From an uncultured Bacteroidales bacterium (GTDB taxonomy: Bacteria > Bacteroidota > Bacteroidia > Bacteroidales > Bacteroidaceae): a stretch of DNA of 64,000 bases. The stretch is from contig CACYSD010000001.1 of the NCBI GenBank assembly GCA_902776985.1, positions 106,758 through 170,757 on the forward strand. Direction: 5' to 3'. Shown here piece by piece: positions 10,286 through 64,000 of this stretch. A program made the position numbers and the translations under genes. Numbering within the stretch: the stretch's first letter is position 1; each line of letters begins with the position of its first letter. Under the pieces are notes generated by a model, which worked only from the letters and a program-made list of their open reading frames with translations, searched no databases and had not been told where the DNA came from.

Positions 10286-11776
10286 ATGGGAGGTTTTTTT
10301 GGGACAGTATCGATGGAAAAATGTGCCGCAGATTTGTTTTATGGCACAGACTATCAATCACATCTCGGTACTCGACGTGGAGGTATGGCCACTTACAGCC
10401 GTAAGAAAGGATTCTACCGTGCCATCCACAACATGGAAAGTACTTATTTCCGCACTCGCTTTGAACCGGAACTGTCTAAGTTTGAAGGAGAATCAGGTAT
10501 TGGCATCATCAGCGACACAGATGCACAGCCAATGCTTTTCAATAGCCATTTAGGACGATTTGCCATCGTCACCGTTGCCAAGATTAACAACCTGGAAGAG
10601 GTGGCGGACAAACTGCTACAGGAAAACATGTATCTTTCTGAGTTCTCCTCCGGCAAAATCAATCCGACAGAGTTGGTTGGAGTGCTGATAGTGCAGGGAA
10701 AGGACTTTGTGAGCGGCATCGAGAACGTGTTCCGCACCATCAAAGGCTCATGCTCAATGCTCCTTCTGACTGAAGACGGCATCATCGCAGCCCGCGACGC
10801 ATGGGGTAGAACCCCGATTGTTGTGGGAAAGAAAGACGGAGCGATGGCTGTGACCAGCGAGAACACCGCATTCCCTAATCTCGGGTATGAAACCACATAT
10901 TTTGTAGGACCAGGAGAAATCATCCGCCTGCGAGCAGACGGCATGGAACAGCTTCGCCGTCCAAACAAGAAGATGCAAATCTGTTCGTTCCTCTGGATTT
11001 ACTACGGATTCCCCACATCCTCATACGAAGGAAAAACCGTGGAAGATGTCCGCTACACCACAGGAAAAATCATGGGAGAAGAGGATGATGTGGAAGCAGA
11101 CAGCGTTGGCGGCATTCCAGACTCAGGAATAGGTATGGCAGTTGGCTACAGCGCAGGCCATAAGGTTCCCTATCAGAGAGGAATAAGCAAATACACACCA
11201 ACCTGGCCTCGTTCGTTCATGCCACCCAACCAAGAGATGCGCAACCTCGTGGCAAAGATGAAGCTGATTCCCAACCACGACATGCTCGACGGCAAACGAT
11301 GCGTATTCTGCGATGACTCCATCGTCCGTGGCACACAGCTTAGGGAAAACGCAAAGGCATTGAAGGAATTAGGAGCAAAAGAGGTTCACATGCGAATCGC
11401 CTGCCCTCCCCTGATTTATGCCTGTCCGTTTGTCAACTTTTCAGCGTCAAAGTCCGAGTTGGAGCTTATTGCCCGTCGTGTCATCAAGGATTTGGAGACA
11501 CACTCTGAAAAAGCCACTCTCCTTGCCGACGCACAGACAGCACAGAATGTCGATGTACCTGAAGAGCGAATCAAAGCCTATGCCACTACCGACACTCCAG
11601 AATACAAGGCTATGGTGCAGGAGATTGCCCGTCGTCTCAATCTCGACAGTCTGAAATTCACCAAACTTGAGACCATCATCAAGGCAATAGGACTGGAGAA
11701 ATGCCAAGTATGCACCCACTGCTTCGACGGCAGTTCCTTCTACTCACTGAAAGAAGATCCAGGAGAACAGGATTAA
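10286..11776 (+). CDS. Amidophosphoribosyltransferase-like protein (class II glutamine amidotransferase + type I PRTase domain), probably with N-terminal propeptide
   Basis: C-terminal PRTase motif VFCDDSIVRGTQL. The N-terminus has Cys at position 13 (EKCAADLFYG..HLGTRRGG), consistent with a PurF-type propeptide followed by the nucleophile Cys. 496 aa. Confidence 0.65.
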   Translation: MGGFFGTVSMEKCAADLFYGTDYQSHLGTRRGGMATYSRKKGFYRAIHNMESTYFRTRFEPELSKFEGESGIGIISDTDAQPMLFNSHLGRFAIVTVAKINNLEEVADKLLQENMYLSEFSSGKINPTELVGVLIVQGKDFVSGIENVFRTIKGSCSMLLLTEDGIIAARDAWGRTPIVVGKKDGAMAVTSENTAFPNLGYETTYFVGPGEIIRLRADGMEQLRRPNKKMQICSFLWIYYGFPTSSYEGKTVEDVRYTTGKIMGEEDDVEADSVGGIPDSGIGMAVGYSAGHKVPYQRGISKYTPTWPRSFMPPNQEMRNLVAKMKLIPNHDMLDGKRCVFCDDSIVRGTQLRENAKALKELGAKEVHMRIACPPLIYACPFVNFSASKSELELIARRVIKDLETHSEKATLLADAQTAQNVDVPEERIKAYATTDTPEYKAMVQEIARRLNLDSLKFTKLETIIKAIGLEKCQVCTHCFDGSSFYSLKEDPGEQD

Positions 11777-11849
11777 GGGGTAAAGGGCTTGAGAAGTTTA
11801 ATTAAAATTGTACTTAGTACTTTGTTAAACGGTAAAAAGTTCCACAGCA

Positions 11850-11950
11850 TTGTGGGAAAAAAGTTTCAGCGAAGTGAAACAAAAGTTTCACCGCAGTGAA
11901 AATAAAGTTTCAGCGAAGAGAAAAAAAAGTTTCACTTCGCTGAAACTTTT
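11850..11950. repeat. Array A: four 22-bp-spaced hairpin units GTTTCA-N6-TGAAAC (iteron-like), flanked by an A/T run
   Basis: Units start at 11863, 11885, 11907 and 11929 (exact 22-bp period). Units 1 and 4 are reverse complements of each other. The conserved 5' flank ttgtgggaaaaaagtttca is shared with the second copy at 38913. Confidence 0.6.
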
Positions 11951-11977
11951 TTTCTTTTTGCTTATCGAGGATAAAGA

Positions 11978-12095
11978 CCTGTAGTTTAACGATTTCAGTT
12001 GACTACTTTCAGCCTTATTTGTAATATGGGTTGACTTTGGTTAATACTTTTTTTTAATCTCGATTGTCAACTATTGTTGCTTATTTATGATATTA
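11978..12095. repeat. 118-bp repeat segment X, copy A
   Basis: About 90% identical to the reverse complement of 38781-38898 (tgtagtttaacgattt..gttgactactttcagccttatttgtaatatgggttgacttt..tgtcaactattgttgcttatttatgatat). Confidence 0.6.
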
Positions 12096-12229
12096 GTTGA
12101 TAGTATTTCTGTAATCCGAGTAGAAGGGCGGTATTCCGCCATGAAGCGAACAGGGAAATAAATACATCGACGTATTTGCCATTAAGGATTATTATGTTTA
12201 CCTTTGCACATAGTTATAATATATCAACA

Positions 12230-13339
12230 ATGAAGAAGATAATATTAATGGTCGCAGTCGCCATGATGACTGCCATGACGCTGAACTCATGCAGCGACGA
12301 TGATGATACAAAAGTAGTGAACCACGATAAGCCAGTGGTGCTGAACTGTGCAAAGCCCGACTATCTGAAGGAGGGCGACAAGGTGGCGCTGATTTCGCCA
12401 TCGTACTATACGCCGATGGAGAACGTCGAGAAAACCGCCAACGTGCTGCGCTCGTGGGGATTGGAACCCGTTATCGGACCAAACGTGGGTAAGGTGGTTG
12501 ACGGAAAATATGCCGGCACCGTGGCAGAGCGTGTGAGCGATATCCGCTGGGCGCTGCGCGATTCCGACATCAAGGCTATTATCTGTAACCGTGGCGGCTA
12601 TGGCACCATCCAGCTCATTGACCAGTTGACACTGGCTGAGCTGAAAGCTTCACCTAAATGGCTGGTAGGCTTCAGCGACATCTCGACGCTACACGGTCTG
12701 CTGACCCGCGCCGGAGTGATGAGCATCCATGGCACCATGAGCTCGTTCCTGGCCAAGGGCGGCACCGACGCCACCAGCACGCTGATGCGCGACCTGCTCC
12801 TGGGCAATGTGCCTCGATATGAGCTGCCTGCACATAAGCAAAACATCACTGGTACAGCTACCGGCACGCTCGTGGGCGGTAACATCTGCACCTTTGCACC
12901 AAACCTCGGCTCGCAAGCCGATGCCACCAAAGGCAAGAACATTATTCTCTTCATTGAGGAGGTGGAGGAGTCGATGCATAACATAGACCGCCAGATGCGC
13001 ATACTCCAGATGAACGGTGTGCTTGACCGCTGCCGGGGCATCATCCTCGGTGAGTTCACCGACTGCGGCAAGGAGTTTACATACGAGAGTGTTGAGGCGA
13101 TGCTCCACGAGATGCTGAAGGCGTACAACATCCCCGTGCTCTGCGGCTTCCCCGGCGGTCACGGTGATGTGAACCTCCCCCTCGTGATGGGTGCCAACGT
13201 CACCATCGACGTGCGCAACGACGGAGCCACCCTGCAGTTTAACATCGACGGTGACCAGCAGCAGGTGAACACCGCCGACATAACCGCCCCTGTAACCCCT
13301 GCCGCCGTCCGTATGCGTCTGGCAGGAAAGTTGGAGTAA
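12230..13339 (+). CDS. LD-carboxypeptidase (peptidase S66, LdcA/MccF-like), lipoprotein
   Basis: Lipoprotein signal MKKIILMVAVAMMTAMTLNSC. S66 motifs (RGGYGT, GFSDISTLH, catalytic Ser context). The ORF-track TTG start at 12176 is probably spurious; the ATG at 12230 precedes the signal peptide. Confidence 0.75.
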   Translation: MKKIILMVAVAMMTAMTLNSCSDDDDTKVVNHDKPVVLNCAKPDYLKEGDKVALISPSYYTPMENVEKTANVLRSWGLEPVIGPNVGKVVDGKYAGTVAERVSDIRWALRDSDIKAIICNRGGYGTIQLIDQLTLAELKASPKWLVGFSDISTLHGLLTRAGVMSIHGTMSSFLAKGGTDATSTLMRDLLLGNVPRYELPAHKQNITGTATGTLVGGNICTFAPNLGSQADATKGKNIILFIEEVEESMHNIDRQMRILQMNGVLDRCRGIILGEFTDCGKEFTYESVEAMLHEMLKAYNIPVLCGFPGGHGDVNLPLVMGANVTIDVRNDGATLQFNIDGDQQQVNTADITAPVTPAAVRMRLAGKLE

Positions 13340-36181: not shown

Positions 36182-38221
36182 TTATTTTACAAGTACTTTC
36201 TTGCCGTTGATAATGTATAGTCCCTTAGTAGGAGCGGTTACTACGCGTCCTGAGATGTCGAAAATCTTGCCGCTTGTAAGAGTTTCAATAGCATTCATAC
36301 TCTCAATTCCTGTTGTATCATCTGCTCCGTTGAAGAAGAGTTCTACACGACCTTTAGCAGAAGAAGGAGTAATCAGAGCCTTATTAACATAAGCCTTGTT
36401 CGCACCAACTGTAATAGCATTTGCTCCAGTAGCGCCTTCTGTATCGTAAAGAGTATTATTACTTAAGATGTAATAGTTTGCACCTGCAGGTGCTGTAATT
36501 GATGAGAATGTACCGATAAGGCCATTGTTAGTTCCCGCAGAAGCTGCATCATATGTATCAAAATCTGCACGGAAGAAATGGACGTTCAGGACGGTTTTTT
36601 CATTATCTTGGCCATTTACATCGGAAGAAATATAAAAATATGGTTTTCCTGCTTCAAGAAGCCCAGAAACCTTGGTCAGGCTAATACTAGCGCCATCTGT
36701 TCCTGCAATGCTATATACCTCACAACCAGCATAAGCAGCTTTATATGGTAGACAGATTGTCCCAAACTTGCCAGTTTCAGTATATTCTCGTTCTAAATCT
36801 CCGCGAACATATAAATCCCATCTTCCACGACTTGTTATCTTTGTATTTGCGTAGTCAGTTAAATACGCTACAGATGGCTGAATGTCACCTGTAATTTCCA
36901 AAGATTTTATATTAAAAATATCTAGACCATTTGATATACGCAACTGATTCAAATCTATAGCTATAATATTCTGACTATTCCATCTGTCAAGCCACATGCC
37001 AGCGCCAGTACCTGCTGCTTGACCATTATAACTATCTCCACGTACTGAATACTCACTGTTATCTTTAATAATTATCTCATGACTGGCATTTGCTGCTGTA
37101 TTTTCAGTAGCAATTACAAGATAATTCCAATTATATAAATCCACAGGTGTATCAAATGTCCATTTACCATTTTCGAAATTATTAACATCAAAAATGGCAT
37201 CGTTTGCGGCAACAGTTAACTTTTCAGGAACACGTGTTACATTAAGAACATAAAATACCCATTCACTTTTACCAAAGAAATTCTCCGTTTTTACAGATCC
37301 ATCTTTTAGATAGGATGTGATTTTGTAAGTATTTTCTTTTCCGTCAACGGCTGTTACGCCAAAGAAACACCCCTGTTCACCACTATCATCTTTTGCAACA
37401 ATATTACGAGTCCAACCAATATCATTTAAGTAACAATTACCGCCATACCAAGGACCTGTATATACAGACGTCCCGTTTCCTTTAAAAGCTTGAATACGAT
37501 ATAGTGTTGAAACTCCATCGGGCATAACAAGCCCCTCATCGTCAGCTTCTGTAATACGAAAACGGTATGTTCCATTATCATTCACTTTACCCATAACAGT
37601 GTTAATAGATGCTGCACGTATTTGATTGTCAGTATTATCGCCGTAAAGTATTGTCTCATCAGCACTCGCAATGCAGACTAAACGGTTTTCGCTAACAATA
37701 GATGAAAAAGATAATTTTGTTCCAGGAACGTATTCATACTCAAAAGGACCGTAAATATAAACATTGGTTATTGAAACAGAAGCGGGATTGTCGTTATCAA
37801 TAGAATGACCATCTGTAGCACTTGTTGATCCCCATATTGTAATATCCGCAAGATTCGAAAAATCAACAGAAGGGTTAGCTGCTTTTAATGCTACAAGGTC
37901 AATATTATTCTCTCCTGCAACAAGATTTACATCTGCGTAATGATCTGTACCATCATTACTTTTAATTCTCAGGCGAACAAAATCGGCATTTTCACTAAAA
38001 TTGGACAATGTGGCGTGCAATGTCGTATAATTGGAAATGTCTGTCGGAAAGTCTGTACCAATTATCGTGTAACCGGAAGTTGCCTTCCATGTCATTGTAC
38101 TAGTGTTTTTATCCCAATCAGCTCCGTAAACCGACCTAAGTGTTCCGTTTGTTGTTAAAGCTTTGAGTTCAGAAATGCCAAAGGCAAACAACAATGCACT
38201 TAATAGTAAAATTTTTTTCAT
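36182..38221 (-). CDS. Secreted T9SS cargo protein of unknown function (beta-rich, possibly carbohydrate-binding)
   Basis: Signal peptide MKKILLLSALLFAFGISELKA. C-terminal ~80 aa (KIFDISGRVVTAPTKGLYIINGKKVLVK) matches the T9SS type-A CTD pattern. 679 aa. Confidence 0.6.
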   Translation of the reverse strand: MKKILLLSALLFAFGISELKALTTNGTLRSVYGADWDKNTSTMTWKATSGYTIIGTDFPTDISNYTTLHATLSNFSENADFVRLRIKSNDGTDHYADVNLVAGENNIDLVALKAANPSVDFSNLADITIWGSTSATDGHSIDNDNPASVSITNVYIYGPFEYEYVPGTKLSFSSIVSENRLVCIASADETILYGDNTDNQIRAASINTVMGKVNDNGTYRFRITEADDEGLVMPDGVSTLYRIQAFKGNGTSVYTGPWYGGNCYLNDIGWTRNIVAKDDSGEQGCFFGVTAVDGKENTYKITSYLKDGSVKTENFFGKSEWVFYVLNVTRVPEKLTVAANDAIFDVNNFENGKWTFDTPVDLYNWNYLVIATENTAANASHEIIIKDNSEYSVRGDSYNGQAAGTGAGMWLDRWNSQNIIAIDLNQLRISNGLDIFNIKSLEITGDIQPSVAYLTDYANTKITSRGRWDLYVRGDLEREYTETGKFGTICLPYKAAYAGCEVYSIAGTDGASISLTKVSGLLEAGKPYFYISSDVNGQDNEKTVLNVHFFRADFDTYDAASAGTNNGLIGTFSSITAPAGANYYILSNNTLYDTEGATGANAITVGANKAYVNKALITPSSAKGRVELFFNGADDTTGIESMNAIETLTSGKIFDISGRVVTAPTKGLYIINGKKVLVK

Positions 38222-38780
38222 TGTAATTTGAAGTTTATTTAATTAGTTAATAAATAATTGAATACAAACGAGAAAAGGGTTTTGATGGCAGATGCCAACA
38301 AAACCCTTAAACGGTATTATATAAAAAAAACTTAAAACTTGCTGAAACGCAGGAATTATACAACTCGTTGAAACACAGAGAATTACCCCCCCTATTAGGT
38401 TACAGGGAATCTTGCTGAAAAGTGGGAAAGTATTCATCTGTACGGTCTTGATTAATAAAGTTGGTAAAAACTATGATATAATTTTGTTTCGGATGCAAAT
38501 ATATGGAGATTATCGTAGCTAAAATTATAGTATTTAACCAATCACTATCAAATTTGATAACGACAAAAATTTCTTTTTCTCGCCAATCATGTTTCAATTT
38601 TAAAACTTTTTCACATTTTTATGTTGTACAGCATAAAAATCAGTGTAAAATACTGTCTAAATGCCCTAAAATGCTTTTAAAAATATAACATACACCACAA
38701 ATCAATGATTTTAAAAGAATTATCGAAAAAACATGTAATTGCCATTTATGACCCATTAAGAATTAGACGAAGAACCACTT

Positions 38781-38898
38781 ATATCATAAATAAGCAACAA
38801 TAGTTGACAACCTATATTAAAAATAAGTATAAAACAAAGTCAACCCATATTACAAATAAGGCTGAAAGTAGTCAACCAAAATCGTTAAACTACAATTA
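38781..38898. repeat. 118-bp repeat segment X, copy B (inverted relative to copy A)
   Basis: Its reverse complement aligns with 11978-12095 at about 90% identity. Confidence 0.6.
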
Positions 38899-38912
38899 AA
38901 AAGTCCCAAAGC

Positions 38913-39035
38913 GTTGTGGGAAAAAAGTTTCACTGTGCTGAAACTTTATTTTCACTGTGCTGAAACAAAAGTTTCTCTGCGGTGAAACTTTTGTTTCACT
39001 CCCACTGAAACTTTTGTTCCAGTGCGAAGAAACCA
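38913..39035. repeat. Array B: five 22-bp-spaced hairpin units GTTTCA-N6-TGAAAC (iteron-like)
   Basis: Units start at about 38927, 38949, 38971, 38994 and 39016. Same 5' flank ttgtgggaaaaaagtttca as array A. Lies ~160 bp upstream of rhaB. Confidence 0.6.
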
Positions 39036-39191
39036 AAAAACGTCTGTTGTATAACGATTAACAAGGAAATAATTGAAGATTATCCAAGATAATTATTCAG
39101 CTTTGAGCACAAAAAAAACGGGAATAGCATAGCTATTGTTAAAAAATAATGTAAATTTGCAGGATACAAACAATAGAAATCAAACTAACTA

Positions 39192-40616
39192 ATGACATCC
39201 AAGTATTTTTTCTGTGTTGACCTCGGTGCTACAAGCGGACGAACGATTCTCGGCAGCATCGTGAACGACAAGTTACAACAACGCGAACTGACTCGTTTCC
39301 CAAATAATATCATACAGACCGGAGGACATTTCTTCTGGGATATCTATGCTCTCTATAACGAGATTATAAAGGGACTGAAGTTGGTTGCCAGCGAAGGCAT
39401 CGAGATTACCTCAATCGGTATCGATACCTGGGGCTGCGACTTTGTGATGATTGGTAAGGACGGCGGCATCCTCCGCAATCCCTACTGCTACCGCGATCCT
39501 CACACCGACGGTGCAATGGAGGAATACTTCAAACTGATTCCAAAGGAGAAAGTGTATGAGAAGACCGGCATTCAGTTCATGCAGTTCAACTCGCTTTTCC
39601 AACTCGCCACGCTGCGCCGTAACCACGACTCGGCTCTGGAGGCAGCAGAGAAGATTCTCTTTATTCCCGATGCTCTGACATACATGCTTACTGGCGAGGC
39701 TGTTTGCGAATACACCGTGCTCAGCACCAGTCAGATGCTGGATCCCCGCACCAAGAGGATTGACAAGGAACTTATCAATGCCATAGGTCTGAAGGAAGAG
39801 CAGTTTGGCAGATATGTGCAACCAGGCGAGGTGGTAGGTGTACTTAGCGAAGAGGTGCAGAAACAGACAGGTCTCGGTGCGGTGCCCGTAGTGGCTGTTG
39901 CCGGACACGACACAGGTAGTGCTGTGGCTGCTGTTCCTGCAGAGGACGAGAGATTTGCCTACCTCAGTTGCGGCACTTGGTCGCTGTTGGGAATCGAAAG
40001 CAAGGATGCTATCATCAACAAGAAGAGTTTTGAGTATAACTTCACTAACGAAGGTGGAATAGAGGGAACAACCCGTTTCCTGAAGAATATCTGCGGAATG
40101 TGGCTGTTGGAAAGGGCAAGGAAGGAGACCCTCCTCCAAGCTTGGCCATCGGACATTAATCAGATTAATCAAGATGCGATGGAGGCGAAACCGTTCCAGT
40201 CGATTATCAATCCAGATGACCCGCGGTTTGCTAATCCACCGTCAATGATTGAGGCTATCCAGAGTTATTGCCGCGAGACAGGTCAGCATGTGCCGGAGAA
40301 CTACAAGGAGATTGCACGCTGTATCTTCGAGAGTCTCGCACAGAGATACAAGGAAGTGCTGGACTACCTGAAAGAACTGGCACCCTTCCCCATCGAGAAA
40401 CTGCATGTCATCGGTGGAGGTACCTACAACCAGTATCTGATGCAGATGACTGCGAACAGCATCGGGCTGCCAGTAGTTACTGGTCCTGTAGAAGGCACCG
40501 CCATCGGTAATATGATGATTCAGGCAAAAGCCGCCGGTCTTGTCAGCGACATCTTCGCCATGCGCCACATCATCGCCAACAGCATCGAACTGAAGACTTA
40601 CCTGCCGGAAAGCTGA
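39192..40616 (+). CDS. rhaB: Rhamnulokinase (FGGY carbohydrate kinase family)
   Basis: N-terminal CVDLGATSGRTILG; FGGY N- and C-domains; 474 aa. Context with rhamnulose-1-P aldolase and a sugar isomerase. Confidence 0.8.
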   Translation: MTSKYFFCVDLGATSGRTILGSIVNDKLQQRELTRFPNNIIQTGGHFFWDIYALYNEIIKGLKLVASEGIEITSIGIDTWGCDFVMIGKDGGILRNPYCYRDPHTDGAMEEYFKLIPKEKVYEKTGIQFMQFNSLFQLATLRRNHDSALEAAEKILFIPDALTYMLTGEAVCEYTVLSTSQMLDPRTKRIDKELINAIGLKEEQFGRYVQPGEVVGVLSEEVQKQTGLGAVPVVAVAGHDTGSAVAAVPAEDERFAYLSCGTWSLLGIESKDAIINKKSFEYNFTNEGGIEGTTRFLKNICGMWLLERARKETLLQAWPSDINQINQDAMEAKPFQSIINPDDPRFANPPSMIEAIQSYCRETGQHVPENYKEIARCIFESLAQRYKEVLDYLKELAPFPIEKLHVIGGGTYNQYLMQMTANSIGLPVVTGPVEGTAIGNMMIQAKAAGLVSDIFAMRHIIANSIELKTYLPES

Positions 40617-40819
40617 GAAGGACTAAGAAATCCTAGGAAATCCTAAGAAATCCTAAGAAATCCTAGGAAATCCTAGGCGGTTCTAGGCTATACTAGGCAA
40701 TCCTAGGAAAGCCTAGGAAAGCCTAGGAAAGCCTAGGAGAACCTAGGAGAACCTAGGAGAACCTAGGCACTTCTAGGCAGACCTAGGCACTCCTATAAGA
40801 GCCTAGAAAAACCTAAAAC
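40617..40819 (+). repeat. Phased 10-bp tandem repeat array 1 (NNCCTAGGNN, about 20 units) immediately after the rhaB stop codon
   Basis: tcctaggaaa tcctaagaaa ... acctaggaga ... all in register with a 10-nt period. The CCTAGG core is palindromic; A/purine tracts are phased at 10 bp. Confidence 0.7.
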
Positions 40820-40866: not shown

Positions 40867-41532
40867 ATGGAATACGAAACCAAAGGGAAAGTCTTGAAAA
40901 AGGCTGTAGTTTGGAAGGATCTCTATATTTATAAAAAGAGCGATACCATCTATCAGCTGACGGTAGAATTCTGTCATCGATATCTCCCTCAATATGGCGA
41001 TCGTACAGTTGATCAGATGGTGCAGGCTGCCCGCAGCTGCAAACAAAACATCGTTGAAGGCAGCGAGGACGGTCAGACAAGCTCTGAAATGGAGATAAAG
41101 CTACTTAACGTAGCACGAGGAAGTTTGCAGGAATTGTGCTCAGACTATAATGACTACATTAACACTCGCCACATATCCCTTTGGTCTCGTGACAACGAGC
41201 GACAGATACAACTTAGGAATTATTGCAAAGCACACAATGACTATAGCGATTACGCTCCGTTGGTTGAGAAAATGAATGACGAAGAATATGCGAATTTGTT
41301 AATCACTCTCTGTCACCAAACTGACAAGATGATGTGCACTTATATTGAGCAATTAGAAAAGAAATTTGTAACTGAGGGAGGCATTAAAGAGCGTATGCGC
41401 GCTGCTCGAACAGGATACCGGAAAGCTCAAGACTCCCACATGGCAGATTTAGAAACAGAAAACAGACAACTCAAAGCCGAAATTCAAGCTTTAAGAGAGA
41501 GAATAAAAGAAATAGAGGCTAAGCTGCCCTAA
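40867..41532 (+). CDS. Four-helix-bundle protein (23S rRNA intervening-sequence protein / Avd-like family) with C-terminal coiled-coil extension
   Basis: VWKDLYIYKKSDTIYQLTVEFCHRY...QMVQAARSCKQNIVEGSED...LNVARGSLQELCSDY matches the four-helix-bundle (TIGR02436-like) pattern. The C-terminus QLKAEIQALRERIKEIEAKL is a coiled coil. Flanked on both sides by CCTAGG arrays. Confidence 0.6.
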   Translation: MEYETKGKVLKKAVVWKDLYIYKKSDTIYQLTVEFCHRYLPQYGDRTVDQMVQAARSCKQNIVEGSEDGQTSSEMEIKLLNVARGSLQELCSDYNDYINTRHISLWSRDNERQIQLRNYCKAHNDYSDYAPLVEKMNDEEYANLLITLCHQTDKMMCTYIEQLEKKFVTEGGIKERMRAARTGYRKAQDSHMADLETENRQLKAEIQALRERIKEIEAKLP

Positions 41533-41540
41533 GGAGAAAT

Positions 41541-41752
41541 AGGAAAAGCTAGGAAATCCTAGGCTATCCTAGGCAGGCCTAGGCAGACCTAGGCAGACCT
41601 AGGAAATCCTAGGCGGTCCTAGGCAATCCTAGAAAAGCCTAGGAAAGCCTAGGAAAGCCTAGGAGAACCTAGAAGAACCTAGAAAAACCTAAGAAAAGCC
41701 TAGAAAAGCCTAGAAAAGCCTAGAAAAATCCAGAAAACCCCAAGAACTAAAA
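41541..41752 (+). repeat. Phased 10-bp tandem repeat array 2 (NNCCTAGGNN, about 20 units; one 11-bp unit, with decay to CCTAGA/CCAGA at the 3' end)
   Basis: ggaaatccta ggctatccta ggcaggccta ggcagaccta ... aaaagcctag aaaagcctag. Ends 12 bp before the isomerase start. Confidence 0.7.
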
Positions 41753-43195: not shown

Positions 43196-43275
43196 AAGAC
43201 CCACCTGAAGACCCACCCCGACCCTCAAAGGGAAGACCCACCCCCTTACCCCTCCCTTGTAAGGAGGGGAGTAGT
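43196..43275 (-). repeat. GC-rich G4-motif hairpin element, copy 4 (extended, with three gaagaccca sub-repeats; G-rich on minus strand)
   Basis: Reverse complement contains CTACTCCCCTCCTTACAAGGGAGGGGTAAGGGGGTGGGTCTTC. Confidence 0.55.
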
Positions 43276-43301
43276 TACCTTTTCAAAACAAAAAGAAAAC
43301 A

Positions 43302-43688
43302 TTGCTAATGAACAGAGTTGCTACATATAAAACTGCATCACCCGACAGGTATGACATTCTGCGTGCCTATGCTCGTAAAAACAGAAAAAATGCAACATTA
43401 GCTGAACAGGTTTTGTGGAAACATCTTAGGGGTGGAGAACTAGGCGTAGAATTCCTACGTCAACACATCGTCGGCGATTACATTGTGGATTTTGCATCAC
43501 GGCATGACGGTCTTATTATCGAGATCGATGGTGGCTACCATGCGGAACGCCAACAAGAAGAAGATGATGCTATTCGACAAAAAAATTTGGAACAAATGGG
43601 TTTTCACTTTCTTCGTTTTTCAAATGAAGAAGTTATGTATAATACCGAAGAGGTTTTAAAACAAATAGAAGATTATTTATATGAATAA
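43302..43688 (+). CDS. DUF559 endonuclease-domain protein (Vsr/restriction-endonuclease-like fold)
   Basis: ATLAEQVLWKHLRG...VEFLRQHIVGDYIVDFASRHDGLIIEIDGGYHAERQQEEDDAIRQKNLEQMGFHFLRF matches the DUF559 pattern (D..E.DG..H motif). 128 aa. Inserted between operon genes. Confidence 0.7.
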   Translation: MLMNRVATYKTASPDRYDILRAYARKNRKNATLAEQVLWKHLRGGELGVEFLRQHIVGDYIVDFASRHDGLIIEIDGGYHAERQQEEDDAIRQKNLEQMGFHFLRFSNEEVMYNTEEVLKQIEDYLYE

Positions 43689-45063
43689 GCAAACAAATTC
43701 TAATAATCAATCTACTCCCCGCCCTCACAGGGAGGGGCAAGGGGGAGGGTCTTCTTCTTTGAAGAGTACCCTTGCGGTCTCTCTGAATAATTACCTTGAT
43801 GCGGGAGCAATCGTAGCAGGTTCAAGCGGAATTACCTTGTGGCAGAATTATCTGGGGCTGTCGGAGATGCATCTGGGTTGGCTCAATGCACTAAGTGCTA
43901 ATGCGCTGGGTGCAGCTATCGGAGCAATCATCGGTGGCTTCCTCGCAGATAAGTTCGGACGTAAGTTCATCTTCACATACAATCTGTTGGTGTATATGCT
44001 TGGTGTGCTCATCATCATGCTGTCCATTAGCTATCCCATGCTCCTTTGCGGATTCCTCGTCACAGGTATTTCAGTAGGAGTGGGAGTTCCTGCATCGTGG
44101 ACATATATCTCTGAAAGCAGTGAGGTTCACAACCGCGGCCGCAACATCTGCATCTCACAGATGTCGTGGGGCATCGGACCTATGCTCATCCTCTTCTTCG
44201 GTATGCTCTTTGCACCAGGCGGCTACTGCTACGGTCCTGTAGAATCGCTGGCTCATGCCATCATCGGTGCCGATGCTTCCCAGGCTGCGGTTGAGGTATT
44301 CTCATCGAGAGTAGTGTTCTTCACCCTCTTCGTTGTTGCCTTCATTGCCTGGAACCTCCAACGTCAGTTGCAGGAAAGCGCTGAGTTCGAAGCCAACAAA
44401 CAGAAAGGCAATAGCGGTATGGTTGAAAACATCAAGATGCTGTTCACCAACCGCATTGCAGTCAAGGCTGTGGTATTCCTTGCAACAATCTATTTGACTT
44501 GGAACCTCGTTGCCTCAGTTATGGGATTCTTCATGCCTCATGTATATGAGACTGCAGGCGGGCTCAGCAACGAAACCGCAAATATGCTTAGTTGCATAAG
44601 CTGGGTATTCGTTGTAGTTACCACCCTCATCATCTCGTTCTTAGTTGACAAGGTTGCACACCGTGTGTTCTACGTCTTCGGTCTGGCAGCTGCACTGACA
44701 GCATGGATTCTCGTCATTGGCGGAAGTATTACCAGCATTGCCGGCATTTGGGTGTTCACCATCCTGTGGGGTATCAACAACGGCAGCAGCGTACAGATAT
44801 TCTATGCACTTTGGGGCAGTGAGCTTTTCCCTGCGAAATTCCGTGCCGGTGCACAGGGACTGATGTTTTTCATCGTCCGTGGTCTCTCAGCGCTGTGGGG
44901 ACTGATCTTCACGCTTATCTACGGAGAGAACGGCGAAGGCTTCACCATCGCAGCCTACTGCATGATTGGTCTCCTCGTTATCTCTCTCGTCGTCGGTTTC
45001 ATCGGTGCCCCCAACACCCGCGGCAAATCGCTGGAACAGATTACAAAGGAAAGATATGGGTAG
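43681..45063 (+). CDS. MFS-family sugar transporter (probable rhamnose/deoxy-sugar permease)
   Basis: 12 predicted transmembrane helices and the MFS motif GGFLADKFGRK. The annotated first ~25 codons (..STPRPHREGQGGGSSS) are the translation of the hairpin repeat; the true start may be downstream. Confidence 0.7.
   Translation: MNKQTNSNNQSTPRPHREGQGGGSSSLKSTLAVSLNNYLDAGAIVAGSSGITLWQNYLGLSEMHLGWLNALSANALGAAIGAIIGGFLADKFGRKFIFTYNLLVYMLGVLIIMLSISYPMLLCGFLVTGISVGVGVPASWTYISESSEVHNRGRNICISQMSWGIGPMLILFFGMLFAPGGYCYGPVESLAHAIIGADASQAAVEVFSSRVVFFTLFVVAFIAWNLQRQLQESAEFEANKQKGNSGMVENIKMLFTNRIAVKAVVFLATIYLTWNLVASVMGFFMPHVYETAGGLSNETANMLSCISWVFVVVTTLIISFLVDKVAHRVFYVFGLAAALTAWILVIGGSITSIAGIWVFTILWGINNGSSVQIFYALWGSELFPAKFRAGAQGLMFFIVRGLSALWGLIFTLIYGENGEGFTIAAYCMIGLLVISLVVGFIGAPNTRGKSLEQITKERYG
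43712..43754 (+). repeat. GC-rich G4-motif hairpin element, copy 5
   Basis: CTACTCCCCGCCCTCACAGGGAGGGGCAAGGGGGAGGGTCTTC. Confidence 0.55.
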
Positions 45064-45094: not shown

Positions 45095-45232
45095 AGTGAT
45101 AGGAAAACCTAGAAAAGCCTAGGAGAGCCTAGGAAAGCCTAGAAAAGCCTAGGAAAACCTAGGAGAACCTAGGAGAGCCTAGGAAAACCTAGGAGAACCT
45201 AGGCAGACCTAGGCACTCCTAGAAGAACTTAA
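45095..45232 (+). repeat. Phased 10-bp tandem repeat array 3 (NNCCTAGGNN, about 13 units), upstream of rhaD
   Basis: aaaacctaga aaagcctagg agagcctagg aaagcctaga ... agacctaggc actcctagaa. Confidence 0.7.
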
Positions 45233-45260
45233 AAACTCAAAAACTAAAAAACTAAATAAA

Positions 45261-49839: not shown

Positions 49840-52800
49840 TTATTCAGATTTGCCTATAGTGACATTAGTCTGGCCTGTGACATTTGCCTTATTTCCTCCA
49901 CCATACACATTACCAAGGATATTAACACCCTTGACCGTAATCTTGGTTTCCGTGTCGGCACCTGTAACATATTGTATCTTTTCCTCTGTTCCGATATTCA
50001 CATAGGTGTCACCTACAACCTCTGCCTCATTTCCACCACCAAATACGTTATTGATGGAACCGATCGCACCTTGCGTATGTGGCGGATACTTAAGTTCACG
50101 GGTTGTAACAACACCTGGAGTCAGTTCCTCGGAAATGGTGATGGTACCTTCTGTAGCGATATTTGCCTGAGAGTGGTTGGTCTTTCCACCAACAACCTCA
50201 TTGATGTTCACAACAGGACTACCAATCATTACCGCAGTTTCACCATAACCACCGCCATAGATGTCTCCGATGCTGGTGAACGACTTGACATTAACATGTG
50301 GAGAATCATAAGGTGAGCTCAACGCTCCAGCGTCGGTTGACTTCAGAGGCAGCCACTGTATCTTACCATCAACGTCAAGAATCAAATCACCATTACCGTC
50401 TTTCTTCTCGGTATAGCCGTATATTGAGTACGCAGCTCGGTTACCGCCACCAAACAACTCACCGATGATAATAGGACGGCATCCGGTTTCCTCGATATTC
50501 ACGACGATGGAACCGCCAATACGTCCGCCTCTATTGTTTCCGCCAAACACCTGACCATATCGACCATTAGTGATATTCAGAGTAGCACCACCTACGACGT
50601 CGGCATTCTCAGCACCTCCATAGACAATATCCAAACCAGGAATACAATCCATCGTCATTACAGTCTCTGCATCCATGTCCGCACTCTTTCCTCCACCGTA
50701 AGCTTCACCAACGTTGAAACAGCAGTAATCATCATCAGCTTCATCCTTTTCACTAAGTATAACCATAGCGGTCTGTCGTAAATTACCCTTTGTGTTAGAA
50801 CCGCCATAAACCGCATGTATCAGACCTCCATGCACAACTACCTTTACCTGACCTGAGCCATAAATATAGGATTTGAAAGGATCTTCGGCACGTTTATCCT
50901 TAGTGTCATAGCTGTCTTCAACAGCGGAATAGTCCTTATATCCGATATTGGCACCAGGATTTTCCTTCAGGACTCCACTAACGACAATAGAATCCTTACC
51001 ATTTCCTCCACCAAAGACCTCGCCGATCTCAAAAGTACCGTTAATTTCAACAAATGTGCCTGGAGTCGATGCGGCATTACCTCCGCCATAAACCTGTGCA
51101 ATACTTGTTCGGTCGCAACCGTCAATAATCACATGAGTATAGGCAGCGTCAACCAAAGCCTTGTTTGTAGCATAGTCAAGGAATGCGTTTGTTGGTTCAT
51201 AGGCAGCCAAGTTACCACCGCCATAGACTGCAGCAACATCGTATTCGCCTAAGACCTTTGCTGTAGCAGGACCGTTAACAGGATTGGTGATGCGTGTAGC
51301 ACCAGCCTTCTGAGTCTTAAATACATGAACGGTTACTGTTCCCTTTGGAGTTCCGCTGACGTTATTACATCCGAAGATACGACTTACTACACAGCCACAA
51401 GCGTCATCGGCAACATTCTCGTTAAGAGATACGTTAGTATTACCCTCAACATCAGCAGCAAGTCCACCGCCATAGGCATCATGAATGACCGTACCACCTG
51501 TCAGATTAACGTATGTGTCCTTCCAAACAATACCGGCCTCGCCGCCACCATAGACAGAACCATACATCGTACCATTAATAATATACAGAGTTGTGTTACC
51601 TAACACTCGACCAGCAACAGCATTTCCTTCAATACCAAGTCCACCACCATAGACATTACCACCAGTGTCAGCAGTACCTATCTGGCAGCTGCTGCCTTGA
51701 ATTGTCACTTGAGTATTATCCTGTACGAAACCACTCTCACTACCGCCATAGACAGAGCCTTTGACAAAGGCACTTCCATCGATGTCAACAAAGGTCTTTG
51801 TCACTAACGCCATGGTCTCGACAAACTTCATATAGTCTTCTTCGCTTGCGAATGTTTCCCAGACACTTTCGTTGTTATTATTAAAGGTCATACGTTTGTT
51901 CGTACCGTCATAATGAGGGACAATTCCCTTGCCGGCGCCAAAGACATGTCCGATGTTATCAGGACCTATTTTTGCAACGTCCTTAACAGTGACTCTACAT
52001 ATACCTAAGCCATCGTTTGTCAAAGCATACGGCATACCAATCTTTATACCGGCAGCAACCAATTCAGGATATTTGGCAAGAGTATCGGCATTGGCAACTT
52101 TGTATTTCCCGACAGAAGCAATCTCACCACCGCCATACACGTTTTGTCCAATCTTAGTCCTACCCTGAATCAAGACAGCTGTGTTACCACGAACCAAAGC
52201 AGAATAACCATGAGTCTCCACACCTGCACCTGCTCCGAACACGCTACATCTGATATCAGGTGCCACTCCTTCACCGGTTGCTCCAGCAACTCCAATGGTA
52301 ACCTCTGTATTTCCTTCCACACGGGCAATCTCTCCACCACCATACACAGAACCGTAAACAGTTCCGTTGCTGATGTTGACATTCGTGCTGTCCACCATGG
52401 CTTTCTCGCACTGGTATGAGTTAGCAAGACCCTTACTTGCTCCAAACACATTACCCTTACCAGTAACACCTTCAGAACCGATCGTACCACCTGTGATATT
52501 TACGTCGCAAATTCCGGTTTTAGCATCATGCAGAGTATGCCATGTAAAATCCCTGCCGTCTGCAGAAACGGTATATGTACCCACATAGCCATAAGCACCA
52601 CCGCCATACACAGAACCATACATGGTGCCACCACCAATATTAAGTGATGTATTACCGCTTACACGTCCGGCAGCTGCATTGTCCTGAAGTCCAAGTCCAC
52701 CACCGAATACGTTACCGCCTGCATCGGTTGTACCAATCTGGCAACTGCCTTGGATATTCACATAAGAATTAAACTGCACAAAACCACTTTCACTACCGCC

Positions 52801-63800: not shown

Positions 63801-64000
63801 TATAATAATAGGCACTCCGTTGTCTGTAACACCTTCAAACAAAGCAATAAGGTCGTCGGCTGTCAATGTAGATGCCTTGGCACCATTTGCGTCAGTGTGA
63901 TATTGTGTACCATCGGTATCCACACACTCCTTGACACACTTGTATTTAAGCTCGTAGTAAGCTCTCTCACGTTGAGGAAGAGTACGATATATATCAATCG
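57843..64000 (-). CDS. Giant (>2,050 aa, N-terminus outside window) surface protein ending in a T9SS C-terminal sorting domain
   Basis: Reading frame is open to the window edge; ORF-track start 63923 is a GTG inside the frame. The C-terminal ~80 aa (IRIYTADGARVATFKIHTDETFEVPVSAKGVYLVNNKKLIIH) have the T9SS CTD pattern. Stop is 8 bp before the next giant gene. Confidence 0.55.
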   Translation of the reverse strand, partial: IDIYRTLPQRERAYYELKYKCVKECVDTDGTQYHTDANGAKASTLTADDLIALFEGVTDNGVPIIITNDKGEKVPNPIYWEENGVCSIYAGRLMNTIQRSDFCGVFGSRMVMKGAQDRVPEVVDYTNYTINRVREVSLNQKRSVIPADIEHKPGADPNSEEPEDYLDVSKAIHGNYFGIYNVVNYLGALTSDVHFRPNEDTRITDNSDTETYGPEKDEHGNLVGDDLTYYNWKKKHVKERKRNNGTSFNKVALASGVYLELTSEKSTGTELNEKDWGYVTGVIELDLINVQTGIGGGFVYAKNEHGRQTYTPKNHDTLTELNADAITRKNYTYSTTDLYEWQTSGNFVHGTQTIIDDCYNISGRYSGDGAVPAHYWFIKGSVYVYDRYISAYTGSPNAYSERINIPLTITASSNAHMKLLNVMPNRYAYFSQPDVPIEDGKKIVINDVSYYKNDPISYWDWYLLSKAERALFVEDTYVTIAACKVGDTDYPEGSVLLPEDYETLKASAPKKRLNGTESPLEPSAYHTELQKDVAFDYIFRSSNNVGHDTGYMLTYSMSNPRPWDTWYTKVESANHERLSPEDYNNETGYESGPTYHLKGTEGGILGQRGYNIDNVISKETYDTYQSMITSHSSDVPDGQAEFEPAYIVTEQVEYNDGGDVHHLNVGTAIPASLVPTLPAGSASPAYICLGTIQLEATEYIYVNTKMTAEQKAEYISMYQTESPLLADEIDNSIVPAYICTTAGLYGGNYYEVGKNYRGLEVWSSMSKTDRERFDFNYDAFDLLIDPLYSRDEAGNVVYAEGRKYQYDGADFTTAAQVEANGVGYSLSQYVDYSATYQGTETLNYGGKTITNGTEVSRTVFESIPNEKRFYSPISVQAAGNVYVVHTAFEIGNSPYAAGTTITANAYNSLGTSEQSNISVLTFTSEQVGKTYYYCRESYVVGEHGEGVAVTKAAVEGSTGSASYTNGQTVPLGFVIEASNYSNLTNKQMNFLIHGISPNGTGTLYVARNSDIFDLSKEKIITVIYEYNYEESDATAMHITPISERHVVNFHLQFKSGVPTVENIKSPRMVIPGDYVGLREPNVIPGAYEVTGGGWKIFEKISDAENHTNGIDYIPRVDKLYWYNDGYYVAYYAKTYLGETYSNHVPLRVANYHDLDAVMKDKAHHMYVDNPGVKRESKIYIDNRTCESDPTKSELDLLKDFFDLSVLSTTPEAGTALEGHANLDTHVHSARNLEFILRSDVSPKAYSVDGGSVTGWTPIGYDNSLEDTGKCFEGTLHGDGHTITGLDHSLFGHLCGEVYNLGVTGSYTSAGIADEGSGYLENCWINTSDNTEKNKKALFENPINTANRTVHLVNCYYPQENQYLSGSGSIEKPLHAFRNGEVTYDLNGFYLFKRYCDNNSSVNTNPYQYYTVGANKTLTLHTGYYANATGPYLFYDNADNYLGSYVESRFADGDYQYAGGEVPSDLDERYDEEHEAYHPIWPDDYFFFGQALNYNHVNGRTHQDNPTVINRSGNYLVTTDAGNRVFRAPAYYRSGNAGVAYFNPYAVFAQTMYGDESMIAYKDMTAIDFTGGNGDLAAGYKMGNVAASGKLPARFYPPLLDDGGLSAFVNVDLTKNLLVYTGVPGGTGTGQTPNASQKTANVVSAYLADGTYTETNTTYRTVDFMDPSHIRGHWVQQSGGVYTAVRDHFLVDLQDFNAPIAYNFGSGNRMWYQRYPDHFVNMNSGWESVSLPFEVELVTTDKKGELTHFYKNSTKGHEYWLREFKGNVQQKMENNQPVDGVFTADFDPLAPSNHTKNYTNTFLYDYYYSQYEFLDRNTDEFKKIYYSTDYLAARYPVDNYPYYDAGKPYIVGFPGKTFFEFDLSGTWTPDNLVNFPITIASPGKQYITFASVEGTSIGVSDNEMEGVSSGGYTFVPTYLNNPEAASVSVFALDNDGGSFENTTAGAASLTAFRPYIKAPSSTKARKIILNKSSGEIDLEPTGEDIDDGSLIVYSENDKIVVKSTLRRTMPIRIYTADGARVATFKIHTDETFEVPVSAKGVYLVNNKKLIIH

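What the first reader, a model, noticed from the sequence alone, without database searches (positions are those of the whole stretch)
11850..11950. Iteron-like array: four hairpin units GTTTCA-N6-TGAAAC at exact 22-bp spacing (copy A)
Units start at 11863, 11885, 11907 and 11929, a 22-bp period (two helical turns). Each unit is an 18-bp inverted repeat (for example gtttcagcgaagtgaaac). Units 1 and 4 are exact reverse complements, so the whole ~85-bp block can also fold as one long hairpin or cruciform. It is preceded by a conserved flank (ttgtgggaaaaaag) and followed by a T-run. The geometry matches plasmid or phage iterons, or a multi-site operator for a dimeric regulator (half-sites GTTTCA/TGAAAC). 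It is not what a simple terminator looks like. A second array with five units exists at 38913 with the same flank.
Basis: seen in the sequence. Interest (0 to 1): 0.75.

Follow-up and report, generated by a model that had tools for sequence, protein, structure and literature searches.

The report
Phased palindrome array, likely protein-binding sites
The four evenly spaced mini-palindromes are real and belong to a widespread, apparently undescribed class of 22-bp-phased site arrays in gut and rumen Bacteroidales that always accompany a small uncharacterised protein (DUF6078), so they are most likely a docking platform for that protein and not a plasmid origin or a plain terminator.

Summary
Array A (11863-11946) has four GTTTCA-N6-TGAAAC units at an exact 22-bp period. 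Array B (38927-39033) has five. Both sit on a ~250-bp repeat that also carries a 118-nt 'X-box'. The two copies are inverted and 26.7 kb of housekeeping genes lie between them, so this is not a plasmid, phage or transposon.

The same architecture (GTTTC-N7/8-GAAAC, 3-10 units, 22-bp period) occurs in at least 128 distinct arrays from viral and metagenome contigs. Arm sequences are constant and centres are variable. Arm deviations are almost never compensated, and G-U shows only a modest excess over C-A. This argues for sequence-specific recognition of half-sites and against RNA hairpins.

Sixteen DUF6078 (PF19555) genes were sampled without regard to arrays. All sixteen have a 22-bp-period palindromic array 12-190 nt after the stop codon. 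Four divergent proteins carry arrays with the same geometry but different half-sites (GTGCCA, TTGCCA, AGTACT). In three of these an otherwise invariant Arg/Lys is replaced.

Best reading: an orphan multi-site array bound by dimers of a DUF6078-type protein. Binding itself and its biological output are inferred, not shown. No DUF6078 gene lies in the window. Array A could also act as a terminator.

The parts
11863..11946 (.). Array A: four units GTTTCA-N6-TGAAAC plus a 4-nt A/T spacer, exact 22-bp period. Units 1 and 4 are perfect and mutually reverse-complementary. Units 2 and 3 have degenerate 3' arms.
11842..11855 (.). Small flanking hairpin CCACA-gcat-TGTGG, part of the 'conserved flank', on the X-box-distal side of array A.
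11947..11959 (+). T-rich run after array A (tttttttcttttt). It pairs with the A-run at 11856-11862 in the long-hairpin fold and could serve as a terminator U-tract.
11980..12097 (+). X-box, copy A: a 118-nt conserved box with three GTTGAC/GTCAAC motifs. Function unknown. No Rfam match and no Bacteroidetes -7 box.
38777..38894 (-). X-box, copy B, 92% identical to copy A, in inverted orientation.
38905..38920 (.). Small flanking hairpin CCCAA-agcg-TTGTGGG, here lying between the X-box and array B.
38927..39033 (.). Array B: five units of the same kind (steps of 22, 22, 22 and 23 bp). It is homologous to array A when read on the minus strand (83% over 80 nt; the unit GTTTCACCGCAG.GAAA is shared).
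10286..11776 (+). Context: glutamine amidotransferase (purF-like, GATase_7) gene. Its stop codon is 87 nt upstream of array A.
12230..13339 (+). Context: LD-carboxypeptidase (Peptidase_S66) lipoprotein gene downstream of X-box A. It has its own -7 box, TACCTTTG, at 12199-12206.
36182..38221 (-). Context: 679-aa secreted protein gene towards which X-box B points. The protein has an N-terminal signal-like sequence and no Pfam match. About 550 nt of AT-rich non-coding DNA lies in between.
39192..40616 (+). Context: FGGY sugar kinase (rhamnulokinase-like) gene. Array B ends 159 nt upstream of its ATG and about 120 nt upstream of a -7 box at 39152-39159.

Best explanation
Arrays A and B are 'orphan' members of a Bacteroidales-wide class of DNA elements. 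Each element is 3-10 short palindromic sites (5-6-bp inverted arms around a free 6-8-bp centre) placed every 22 bp, about two helical turns, so that all sites face the same side of the duplex.

The sites are most likely bound side by side by dimers of a small sequence-specific DNA-binding protein of the DUF6078 (PF19555) family. This protein has an N-terminal Cys4 cluster and a C-terminal helical domain that weakly resembles a Cro/CI helix-turn-helix. Binding would build a cooperative nucleoprotein block.

What is shown:
- the array architecture and its non-random nature;
- its wide recurrence;
- sequence constraint on the arms without compensation;
- the obligatory gene-array linkage of DUF6078;
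- co-variation between half-site sequence and protein clade.

What is inferred:
- that DUF6078 actually binds the arrays;
- that it binds duplex DNA as a dimer;
- that the species of this window encodes a matching protein elsewhere in its genome;
- what the complex does.

My best guess for the output is a barrier or insulator at gene boundaries, i.e. a transcription roadblock or silencing platform. In mobile elements it may also be a replication or maintenance site. In this window the arrays travel with a 118-nt X-box as a ~250-bp dispersed repeat present in two inverted copies.
For: **Recurrence.**
- The arrays are real and far above chance.
In total there are 128 distinct arrays and 674 units, with 3-10 units each.

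**Period.** The period stays at 22 bp (range 21-23) whether the unit is built as 5+7+5+5, 5+8+5+4, 6+6+6+4 or 6+8+6+2.

**Arms versus centres.**
- Arms are constant and centres variable.
- Among deviating arm pairs, 21 are compensated and 355 are not.
- G-U (128) shows only a modest excess over C-A (94). Oriented to the DUF6078 sense strand the counts are 23 versus 19.
- The tolerance profile is the same in both arms, with position 4 T>C the commonest deviation.

**Linkage to DUF6078.**
- DUF6078 is the largest neighbour family of the arrays. The array starts 12-125 nt after its stop.
- Sixteen DUF6078 genes were sampled without regard to arrays. All 16 have a downstream array whose top autocorrelation period is 22. 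One is in a Treponema.

**Co-variation.**
- Four divergent proteins have other half-sites in the same geometry: GTGCCA-N6-TGGCAC, TTGCCA-N6-TGGCAA, AGTACT-N8-AGTACT and a mixed array.
- The two TGCCA-type proteins are sisters.
- The otherwise invariant Arg/Lys (R89 of P0042) is Ile, Ile or Met in exactly three of the four proteins with variant half-sites.

Against: - No binding experiment exists.
- No DUF6078 gene lies in the 64-kb window, and the rest of the genome could not be examined.
- Gene-array linkage and co-variation could also arise if the array were an RNA or single-strand DNA hairpin substrate of the protein, or simply from co-inheritance of a two-part module.
- The Arg-to-Ile/Met correlation rests on three proteins.
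- The fourth variant-array protein (L263) retains Arg.
- Compensated arm changes are about twice the shuffled expectation (21 versus 10.8), so some pressure to keep the palindrome exists.
- Array A also has properties of a strong terminator.
- Most arrays (about 85% of those sampled) have no DUF6078 gene within the fetched locus.
Confidence: 0.5

Rival explanations
1. Complex intrinsic terminator or 3'-UTR RNA structure. The array is transcribed from the upstream gene. It folds into tandem small hairpins or one long hairpin flanked by A- and U-tracts, and this stops or stabilises the transcript in both directions.
For: - Array A lies 87 nt after the purF-like stop and folds into a 27-bp-stem hairpin (-52 kcal/mol, z = -8.6) followed by a T-run.
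- Array B also folds well (z = -6.5).
- In the family, 38 of 107 adjacent gene 3' ends lie within 60 nt of an array, against 8 of 80 gene 5' ends. Divergent contexts are depleted, at 8 of 65.
Against: - Array B sits between divergently transcribed genes, upstream of a promoter, where no terminator is needed.
- Arms keep one sequence instead of merely pairing.
- Deviations are uncompensated (355 versus 21), and G-U is only modestly preferred over C-A on either strand.
- Five-bp stems with 7-8-nt loops are weak.
- Long-range complementarity between units, as in array A, occurs in only 12 of 101 arrays, whereas direct unit duplicates occur in 26.
- A fixed 22-nt phase has no obvious meaning for RNA hairpins.
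- There is no Rfam match.
Confidence: 0.2
2. Selfish dispersed repeat of the REP/BIME or MITE kind. Palindromic units are multiplied and moved by a dedicated enzyme, possibly DUF6078 acting like a REP-associated transposase, with no function for the host.
For: - Arrays are intergenic, prefer gene 3' ends and often lie at contig ends.
- The window has two copies of a 250-bp repeat that carries the array.
- Closely related DUF6078 genes (86-88% identical) occur with and without an adjacent array, with the breakpoint right after a shared sequence.
- DUF6078 has an invariant Tyr-Tyr pair.
Against: - Units within an array have different centres, which is not what copy-and-paste of a repeat gives.
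- Copy density is low, about one array in 1.4 Mb of related rumen genomes.
- DUF6078 has no HUH motif and no fold match to HUH or IS200-type transposases.
- No target-site duplications were seen.
- The array is invariant in 10 contigs of the species.
Confidence: 0.12
3. Array of recombinase core sites (an attachment or inversion platform). Each unit is a pair of inverted binding arms around a 6-8-bp crossover region, as in lox, dif or att cores. Different centres would give different 'addresses'.
For: - The form of the unit fits.
- Seven arrays lie 250-610 bp from tyrosine integrase genes. One (L094) is flanked by two divergent integrase genes.
- Arrays attached to the same integrase-side flank have different lengths and different far flanks.
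- Units 1 and 4 of array A are the same site in opposite orientation.
- Arrays A and B share one unit in inverted orientation.
Against: - Arms of 5-6 bp are short for known tyrosine-recombinase cores.
- No integrase is in the window.
- No inversion or rearrangement at the arrays is seen among the contigs of the species.
- This reading does not explain the obligatory link to DUF6078, which is too small and lacks the recombinase catalytic signature.
Confidence: 0.1
4. Replication-origin iterons of a plasmid, phage or integrated element.
For: - A 22-bp period is typical of iteron origins.
- In four mobile elements the same kind of array lies 30-170 nt upstream of a BT4734-family archaeo-eukaryotic-type primase-helicase gene (L105, L131, L182, L259). 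The family is listed in PMC5862659.
Against: - In the window both arrays are embedded among housekeeping genes (fmt, prfC, rmlD, tsaC-like, glucokinase and others). There is no rep, primase, integrase or partition gene.
- The units are palindromes, not direct repeats.
- Most arrays elsewhere have no replication gene nearby.
- There are no matches in the plasmid or phage collections.
Confidence: 0.05

Closest known systems
F-plasmid sopC / SopB centromere (and the parS/ParB and parC/ParR type of arrangement)
   Same: A tandem array of units that each contain a short inverted repeat bound by a dimeric DNA-binding protein. The array lies immediately downstream of the gene for that protein. Extra copies of the sites can lie elsewhere on the replicon. 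(From my own knowledge of sopC.)
   Different: - The unit is 22 bp, against 43 bp in sopC.
- No ParA-type ATPase gene is next to DUF6078.
- DUF6078 is unrelated to ParB.
- The arrays occur in chromosomes next to housekeeping genes.
- The centres of the palindromes are hypervariable.
Plasmid iterons (e.g. RK2, pSC101, R6K: 17-22-bp repeats at about 22-bp spacing)
   Same: The 22-bp phase, the number of units (4-9), and in four mobile elements a position next to a replication gene.
   Different: Iterons are direct repeats bound by Rep monomers. Here every unit is a palindrome with a free centre, and no Rep gene is present in the window.
Cro/CI and restriction-modification controller (C-protein) operators
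   Different: - Known operators come in sets of 2-3 placed upstream of the regulated gene, not as 3-10 units at a strict phase downstream of the regulator gene.
- DUF6078 has an extra Cys4 module.
REP / BIME elements and their RAYT transposases
   Same: Short extragenic palindromes clustered at regular spacing, mainly at gene 3' ends, and linked to one small protein family encoded next to some of them.
   Different: - REP copies are near-identical, including their loops, and alternate in orientation.
- RAYTs are HUH enzymes flanked on both sides by REPs.
- Here the centres differ, copy number is low, and the protein has no HUH signature.
UG27 reverse-transcriptase ncRNA arrays of Bacteroidota prophages (bioRxiv 10.64898/2026.09.22.753630)
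   Same: Arrays of hairpin-containing units with variable sequence in Bacteroidota mobile elements.
   Different: The units are about 135-167 nt with a pseudoknot and AUC...UANAG motifs, next to an RT gene. None of this is present here.

Membership tests
GTTTC-type 22-bp-phased palindrome arrays (class defined here) | Units of two inverted 5-6-bp arms (GTTTC(A)/(T)GAAAC) around a 6-8-nt centre | tested here: met
   Array A has 4 units and array B has 5. The family consensus is GTTTCA...TGAAAC.
GTTTC-type 22-bp-phased palindrome arrays (class defined here) | Start-to-start period of 22 bp (21-23), at least 3 units, beginning with GTTTC and ending with GAAAC | tested here: met
   Steps are 22, 22, 22 in A and 22, 22, 22, 23 in B.
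GTTTC-type 22-bp-phased palindrome arrays (class defined here) | Intergenic location, centres differing between units, A/T-rich spacers | tested here: met
.
GTTTC-type 22-bp-phased palindrome arrays (class defined here) | A DUF6078 gene ending 12-190 nt upstream of the array (the 'cognate' form of the module) | tested here: not met
   tblastn with 8 DUF6078 proteins finds nothing in the window. The window arrays are therefore orphans, like about 85% of the sampled arrays.
Plasmid/phage replication-origin iterons | Direct repeats bound by a Rep initiator encoded nearby, with an adjacent AT-rich unwinding region and DnaA boxes | tested here: not met
   The units are palindromes. There is no rep or primase gene within 64 kb. 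There is no similarity to plasmid or phage records.
Intrinsic (rho-independent) terminator | G+C-rich stem-loop directly followed by a U-tract at the 3' end of a transcription unit | tested here: inconclusive
   - Array A: a long stem plus a T-run downstream of a gene, but the simple scan did not call it.
- Array B: divergent promoter region, no upstream gene end.
- Transcript ends are not testable here.
Structured RNA family (Rfam) | Match to a curated covariance model, with covariation that supports the pairs | tested here: not met
   No hit at gathering score. The only hits are miRNA-like hairpin noise. Arm deviations are uncompensated.
REP/BIME with RAYT | Many near-identical palindromes per genome, alternating orientation, and a HUH-Tyr transposase flanked by REPs | tested here: not met
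   The centres differ, density is low, and DUF6078 has no HUH motif or fold match. The genome-wide copy number in this species is not testable.
Composite transposon / invertible segment bounded by the two inverted 250-bp repeats | Transposase or invertase gene, mobile cargo, and alternative arrangements in the population | tested here: not met
   The interior is housekeeping genes. All contigs of the species show the same junction.
UG27 RT ncRNA array | ~150-nt units with conserved internal-loop motifs next to an RT and two accessory genes | tested here: not met
   The units are 22 nt and there is no RT gene.

The most novel reading that the evidence does not exclude
DUF6078 proteins and their 22-bp-phased palindrome arrays form a previously undescribed protein-DNA system of Bacteroidales and their mobile elements. 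In this system:
- a small Cys4 + HTH-like protein has evolvable half-site specificity (GTTTC, TGCCA, AGTACT and others);
- the protein polymerises on arrays placed after its own gene and at dozens of orphan sites such as the two in this window;
- the complexes act as chromosomal boundary or roadblock elements, or as maintenance or replication sites of mobile elements.

The window would then show two chromosomal docking platforms spread by a 250-bp repeat.
Probability: 0.35. Interest if true: 0.8.

Novelty: new variant of a known kind. Interest (0 to 1): 0.62.

Why it matters
Gut and rumen Bacteroidales are among the best-studied commensals, yet their non-coding DNA is poorly charted.

A class of strictly phased binding-site arrays has turned up hundreds of times in gut metagenomes. 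It is tied without exception, in 16 of 16 unbiased cases, to one protein family of unknown function. This gives DUF6078 (PF19555) a concrete, testable function.

The apparent re-targeting of half-site specificity between protein clades offers a natural series of cognate protein-site pairs. Such pairs are useful both for understanding recognition and as orthogonal parts for Bacteroides genetics.

If the complexes block transcription or mark the replication or maintenance regions of mobile elements, they would add a new layer to gene-boundary control and to mobile-element biology in this phylum.

For the window itself, the result explains an odd-looking sequence without invoking a plasmid or phage.

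Tried and rejected
- **Rfam.** I searched the locus at a permissive E-value and the whole window at gathering score. The only hits were spurious miRNA-like hairpins.
- **tRNA/tmRNA.** None found.
- **X-box 23-mer in 185,579 species genomes.** No hit.
- **Orthologue approach.** I fetched 80 genome loci encoding the purF-like protein. The best identity was 91%, there was no synteny, and no array or X-box homologue was present. The species is therefore not represented and the 'orthologous intergenic region' test could not be done. Only one weak array was found in that 1.4 Mb.
- **X-box in all 2.6 Mb fetched.** Nothing.
- **Transposon or invertible-segment idea for the 26.7 kb between the inverted repeats.** Rejected, because the cargo is housekeeping genes and the junctions are identical in all contigs.
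- **UG27 RT ncRNA arrays.** Considered after a literature hit and rejected because the units are about 150 nt.
- **L092.** This first viral hit turned out to be direct-repeat iterons inside a DnaD-like replication gene, which is unrelated.
- **BLAST of the 260-bp element against plasmids and phages.** Nothing useful.
- **DUF6078 against PHROGs, NCBIfam, PDB sequences and Foldseek/PDB.** Nothing. The afdb50 library was unavailable.
- **More members of the variant-half-site clades in viral contigs.** None found. A scan for TGCCA-type arrays found three more arrays but no DUF6078 gene within the fetched pieces.
- **Extending the window with the look-up of encoding contigs.** This added no new array or DUF6078 gene.
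- **Literature searches** for DUF6078/PF19555 and for Bacteroidales palindromic repeats found no description of these arrays.

Full report
**1. The observation**

The sequence at 11850-11950 is as described. Four 18-bp units start at 11863, 11885, 11907 and 11929.

- Units 1 and 4 are perfect GTTTCA-N6-TGAAAC palindromes and exact reverse complements of each other.
- Unit 2 has one arm mismatch and unit 3 has two.
- Tandem Repeats Finder reports period 22, 3.5 copies.
- The pattern with at most one mismatch occurs six times in the window, only in the two arrays, against 0.18 expected from shuffles.
- A phased three-unit pattern hits only the two arrays, against zero in shuffles.

The second array (38927-39033) has five units, one with a 7-nt centre.

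**2. What surrounds it in the window**

The two arrays are not isolated. Each belongs to a ~250-bp repeat that also contains a 118-nt 'X-box' (11980-12097 and 38777-38894, 92% identical). The two copies are inverted.

The arrays themselves are homologous in that same inverted sense (83% over 80 nt, with one unit shared including its centre). It lies on opposite sides of the array relative to the X-box in the two copies.

The 26.7 kb between the copies encodes ordinary chromosomal functions:
- LD-carboxypeptidase and D-Ala-D-Ala dipeptidase;
- methionyl-tRNA formyltransferase and RF3;
- RmlD and a Sua5/TsaC-like protein;
- glucokinase and asparaginase;
- an ECF sigma factor and a ClC channel.

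There is no transposase, integrase, Rep or partition gene.

Array A lies 87 nt after the stop of a purF-like amidotransferase gene. It is about 250 nt upstream of the -7 box of the next gene. Array B lies in a divergent intergenic region, about 120 nt upstream of the -7 box of a rhamnulokinase-like gene.

Rfam and tRNA scans are negative.

**3. Origin and close relatives**

The window comes from an uncultured rumen Bacteroidales bacterium. Identical purF-like proteins occur on ENA rumen and gut metagenome contigs of up to 192 kb. The whole intergenic region, array included, is essentially invariant in ten of them.

The species is not among the 185,579 representative genomes:
- the X-box 23-mer gives no hit;
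- the best purF-like protein is 91% identical, without synteny;
- neither array nor X-box has a homologue in those 1.4 Mb.

The strict 'conserved in orthologous position' test therefore could not be made.

**4. The array type is widespread**

I built a phased pattern that fits both window arrays. Most are from human gut.

After de-replication there are 128 arrays with 674 units, 3-10 units per array, and steps of 21-23 bp that are overwhelmingly 22.

Two partitions exist: 5+7+5 arms and centre with a 5-nt spacer, and 5+8+5 with a 4-nt spacer. The window is of the second kind. The period is the same in both.

Other shared features:
- Arrays start with GTTTC and end with GAAAC.
- Spacers are A/T-rich. 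Centres are G/C-rich in the middle and differ from unit to unit.
- The stem does not extend into the centre.
- Arrays are almost always intergenic.
- Gene 3' ends are much closer to them than 5' ends (38 of 107 versus 8 of 80 within 60 nt).
- Divergent contexts are under-represented, at 8 of 65.

**5. DNA sites or RNA hairpins?**

If pairing were what mattered, arm changes should be compensated or at least be G-U on the transcribed strand. They are not. The evidence is as follows.

- There are 21 compensated changes against 355 uncompensated.
- G-U occurs 128 times and C-A 94 times. Oriented to the sense strand of the upstream DUF6078 gene the counts are 23 and 19.
- The two arms tolerate the same substitutions at the same positions, as expected for a symmetric reader.
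- Long-range complementarity between units makes array A fold into one 27-bp stem. It is rare in the family (12 of 101 arrays), whereas direct duplicates of units are commoner (26 of 101).

A constant 22-bp phase across different partitions is easiest to understand as helical phasing on duplex DNA. I therefore favour protein-binding half-sites. The modest excess of compensated changes over shuffles (21 versus 10.8) shows that palindromy itself is also kept.

**6. The partner**

Among the genes next to arrays, the largest homologous group is DUF6078 (PF19555). It is always upstream, with the array 12-125 nt after the stop.

To remove selection bias I sampled DUF6078 genes independently of arrays:
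- seven distinct proteins from a homology search, looked up on their contigs;
- four annotated genes in PLSDB records, including Treponema saccharophilum;
- five in phage-collection records.

All sixteen have a downstream repeat whose strongest autocorrelation period is 22.

Twelve have GTTTC/GAAAC arms. Four divergent proteins have the same geometry with other arms:
- GTG[C/A]CA-N6-TG[G/T]CAC (B. finegoldii);
- TTGCCA-N6-TGGCAA;
- AGTACT-N8-AGTACT (P. distasonis);
- a mixed array.

The two TGCCA-type proteins are sister branches. A basic residue that is invariant in the other family members (R89 in P0042) is Ile, Ile or Met in exactly three of the four variant-array proteins; the mixed-array protein L263 keeps Arg.

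**7. Other contexts**

Arrays also lie:
- 30-170 nt upstream of BT4734-family primase-helicase genes in four mobile elements, which also encode DUF6078. The family is listed in PMC5862659;
- near tyrosine integrase genes in seven loci, one of them flanked by two;
- upstream of ECF sigma genes (seven);
- next to many housekeeping genes.

No single downstream function emerges. This is why the output of the presumed complex stays open.

**8. Verdict for the window**

Arrays A and B meet every structural criterion of the class but have no DUF6078 gene within 64 kb. They are orphan arrays carried by a species-specific 250-bp repeat.

The most likely mechanism is cooperative binding of a DUF6078-type dimer to each unit on one face of the helix. 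The most plausible effect is a barrier or regulatory platform at a gene boundary. Array A may in addition terminate transcription of the purF-like gene.

The plasmid/phage-origin reading does not fit this locus. The X-box remains unexplained.

I found no description of these arrays or of DUF6078 function in the searchable literature.

Noticed in passing
window 40623-40806, 41540-41746, 45100-45256: Three intergenic regions inside the rhamnose-utilisation gene cluster each hold 11-19 tandem copies of a 10-bp unit built around the palindrome CCTAGG (e.g. CCTAGGAAAG). The period is exactly 10 bp, one helical turn, which also suggests a phased protein-binding or structural array.
   Followed up: partly
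window 11980-12097 and 38777-38894: The 118-nt X-box that accompanies both arrays contains three or four GTTGAC/GTCAAC motifs about 30-35 nt apart. It has no Rfam match, no ORF and no Bacteroidetes -7 box, and no homologue in 2.6 Mb of fetched DNA or in the species-representative genomes.
   Followed up: partly
window 11983-11996 / 38880-38893; L261 1791-1805: The first 14 nt of the X-box (AGTTTAACGATTT) recur 10 nt after the end of the TTGCCA-type array downstream of a DUF6078 gene in a phage-collection record, in the same orientation relative to the array. This is a single case and may be chance.
   Followed up: partly
window 25548-25594, 43233-43277 (inverted), 43707-43753: There are three copies of a ~47-nt G+C-rich repeat with an internal hairpin (CTCCCCGCCC...GGGAGGGG...GGGGGAGGG) at gene ends. 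This is a second, unrelated family of dispersed palindromic repeats in the same window.
   Followed up: no
L011-L039, just after the purF-like stop codon: In related rumen Bacteroidales, the region right after the orthologous gene carries many other short tandem repeats. Examples are GGTTTGA/GAGTTTA heptamers, ACGAAT hexamers and GTTGACA repeats. They are often arranged as two complementary blocks that would form long hairpins. Repeat-built 3' structures therefore seem to be a habit of this lineage.
   Followed up: no
L266 127-260, L267 12131-12200, L268 7213-7300; also L095/L109/L210: Arrays with GTGCCA-N6-TGGCAC units at the same 22-bp period occur in viral contigs. In conjugative-transposon-like loci (between topoisomerase III and a methylase-helicase gene), GTGCC units are interleaved with GTTTC units in one array.
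   Followed up: partly
L105/L236, L131, L182 versus L108: DUF6078 genes that are 75-88% identical share the first ~45 nt after the stop. After that, one continues with the array (L108) and the others with unrelated DNA (L105, L131, L182). In the latter, the array of the element lies upstream of the convergent primase-helicase gene instead. Arrays therefore relocate within elements.
   Followed up: partly
L237-L240: In Bacteroides sp., a DUF6078 gene plus array sits directly upstream of a tRNA gene. In some strains that tRNA gene is the insertion site of an integrase/ArdA/RadC-carrying element, and in one strain it is empty.
   Followed up: no
window 40867-41532 and 43302-43688: A 23S-rRNA-intervening-sequence-protein gene (PF05635) and a DUF559/endonuclease-like gene are inserted between the sugar-catabolism genes. 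Each is bordered by the CCTAGG decamer arrays or the G+C-rich repeat.
   Followed up: no
L002 1-1102 versus L001/L003: One strain of the species has a different gene set (GH2-family fragment and SPOUT methyltransferase) in place of the DHH phosphoesterase gene upstream of the radical-SAM gene. This rearrangement is about 3 kb from array A, while the array region itself is unchanged.
   Followed up: no
window 49840-57834 and 57843-63923 (minus strand): There are two adjacent giant genes (2664 aa with a Peptidase_M26_N match, and more than 2026 aa, 3869 aa on the longer contig) with internal ~1050-nt repeats and strong negative GC skew.
   Followed up: no
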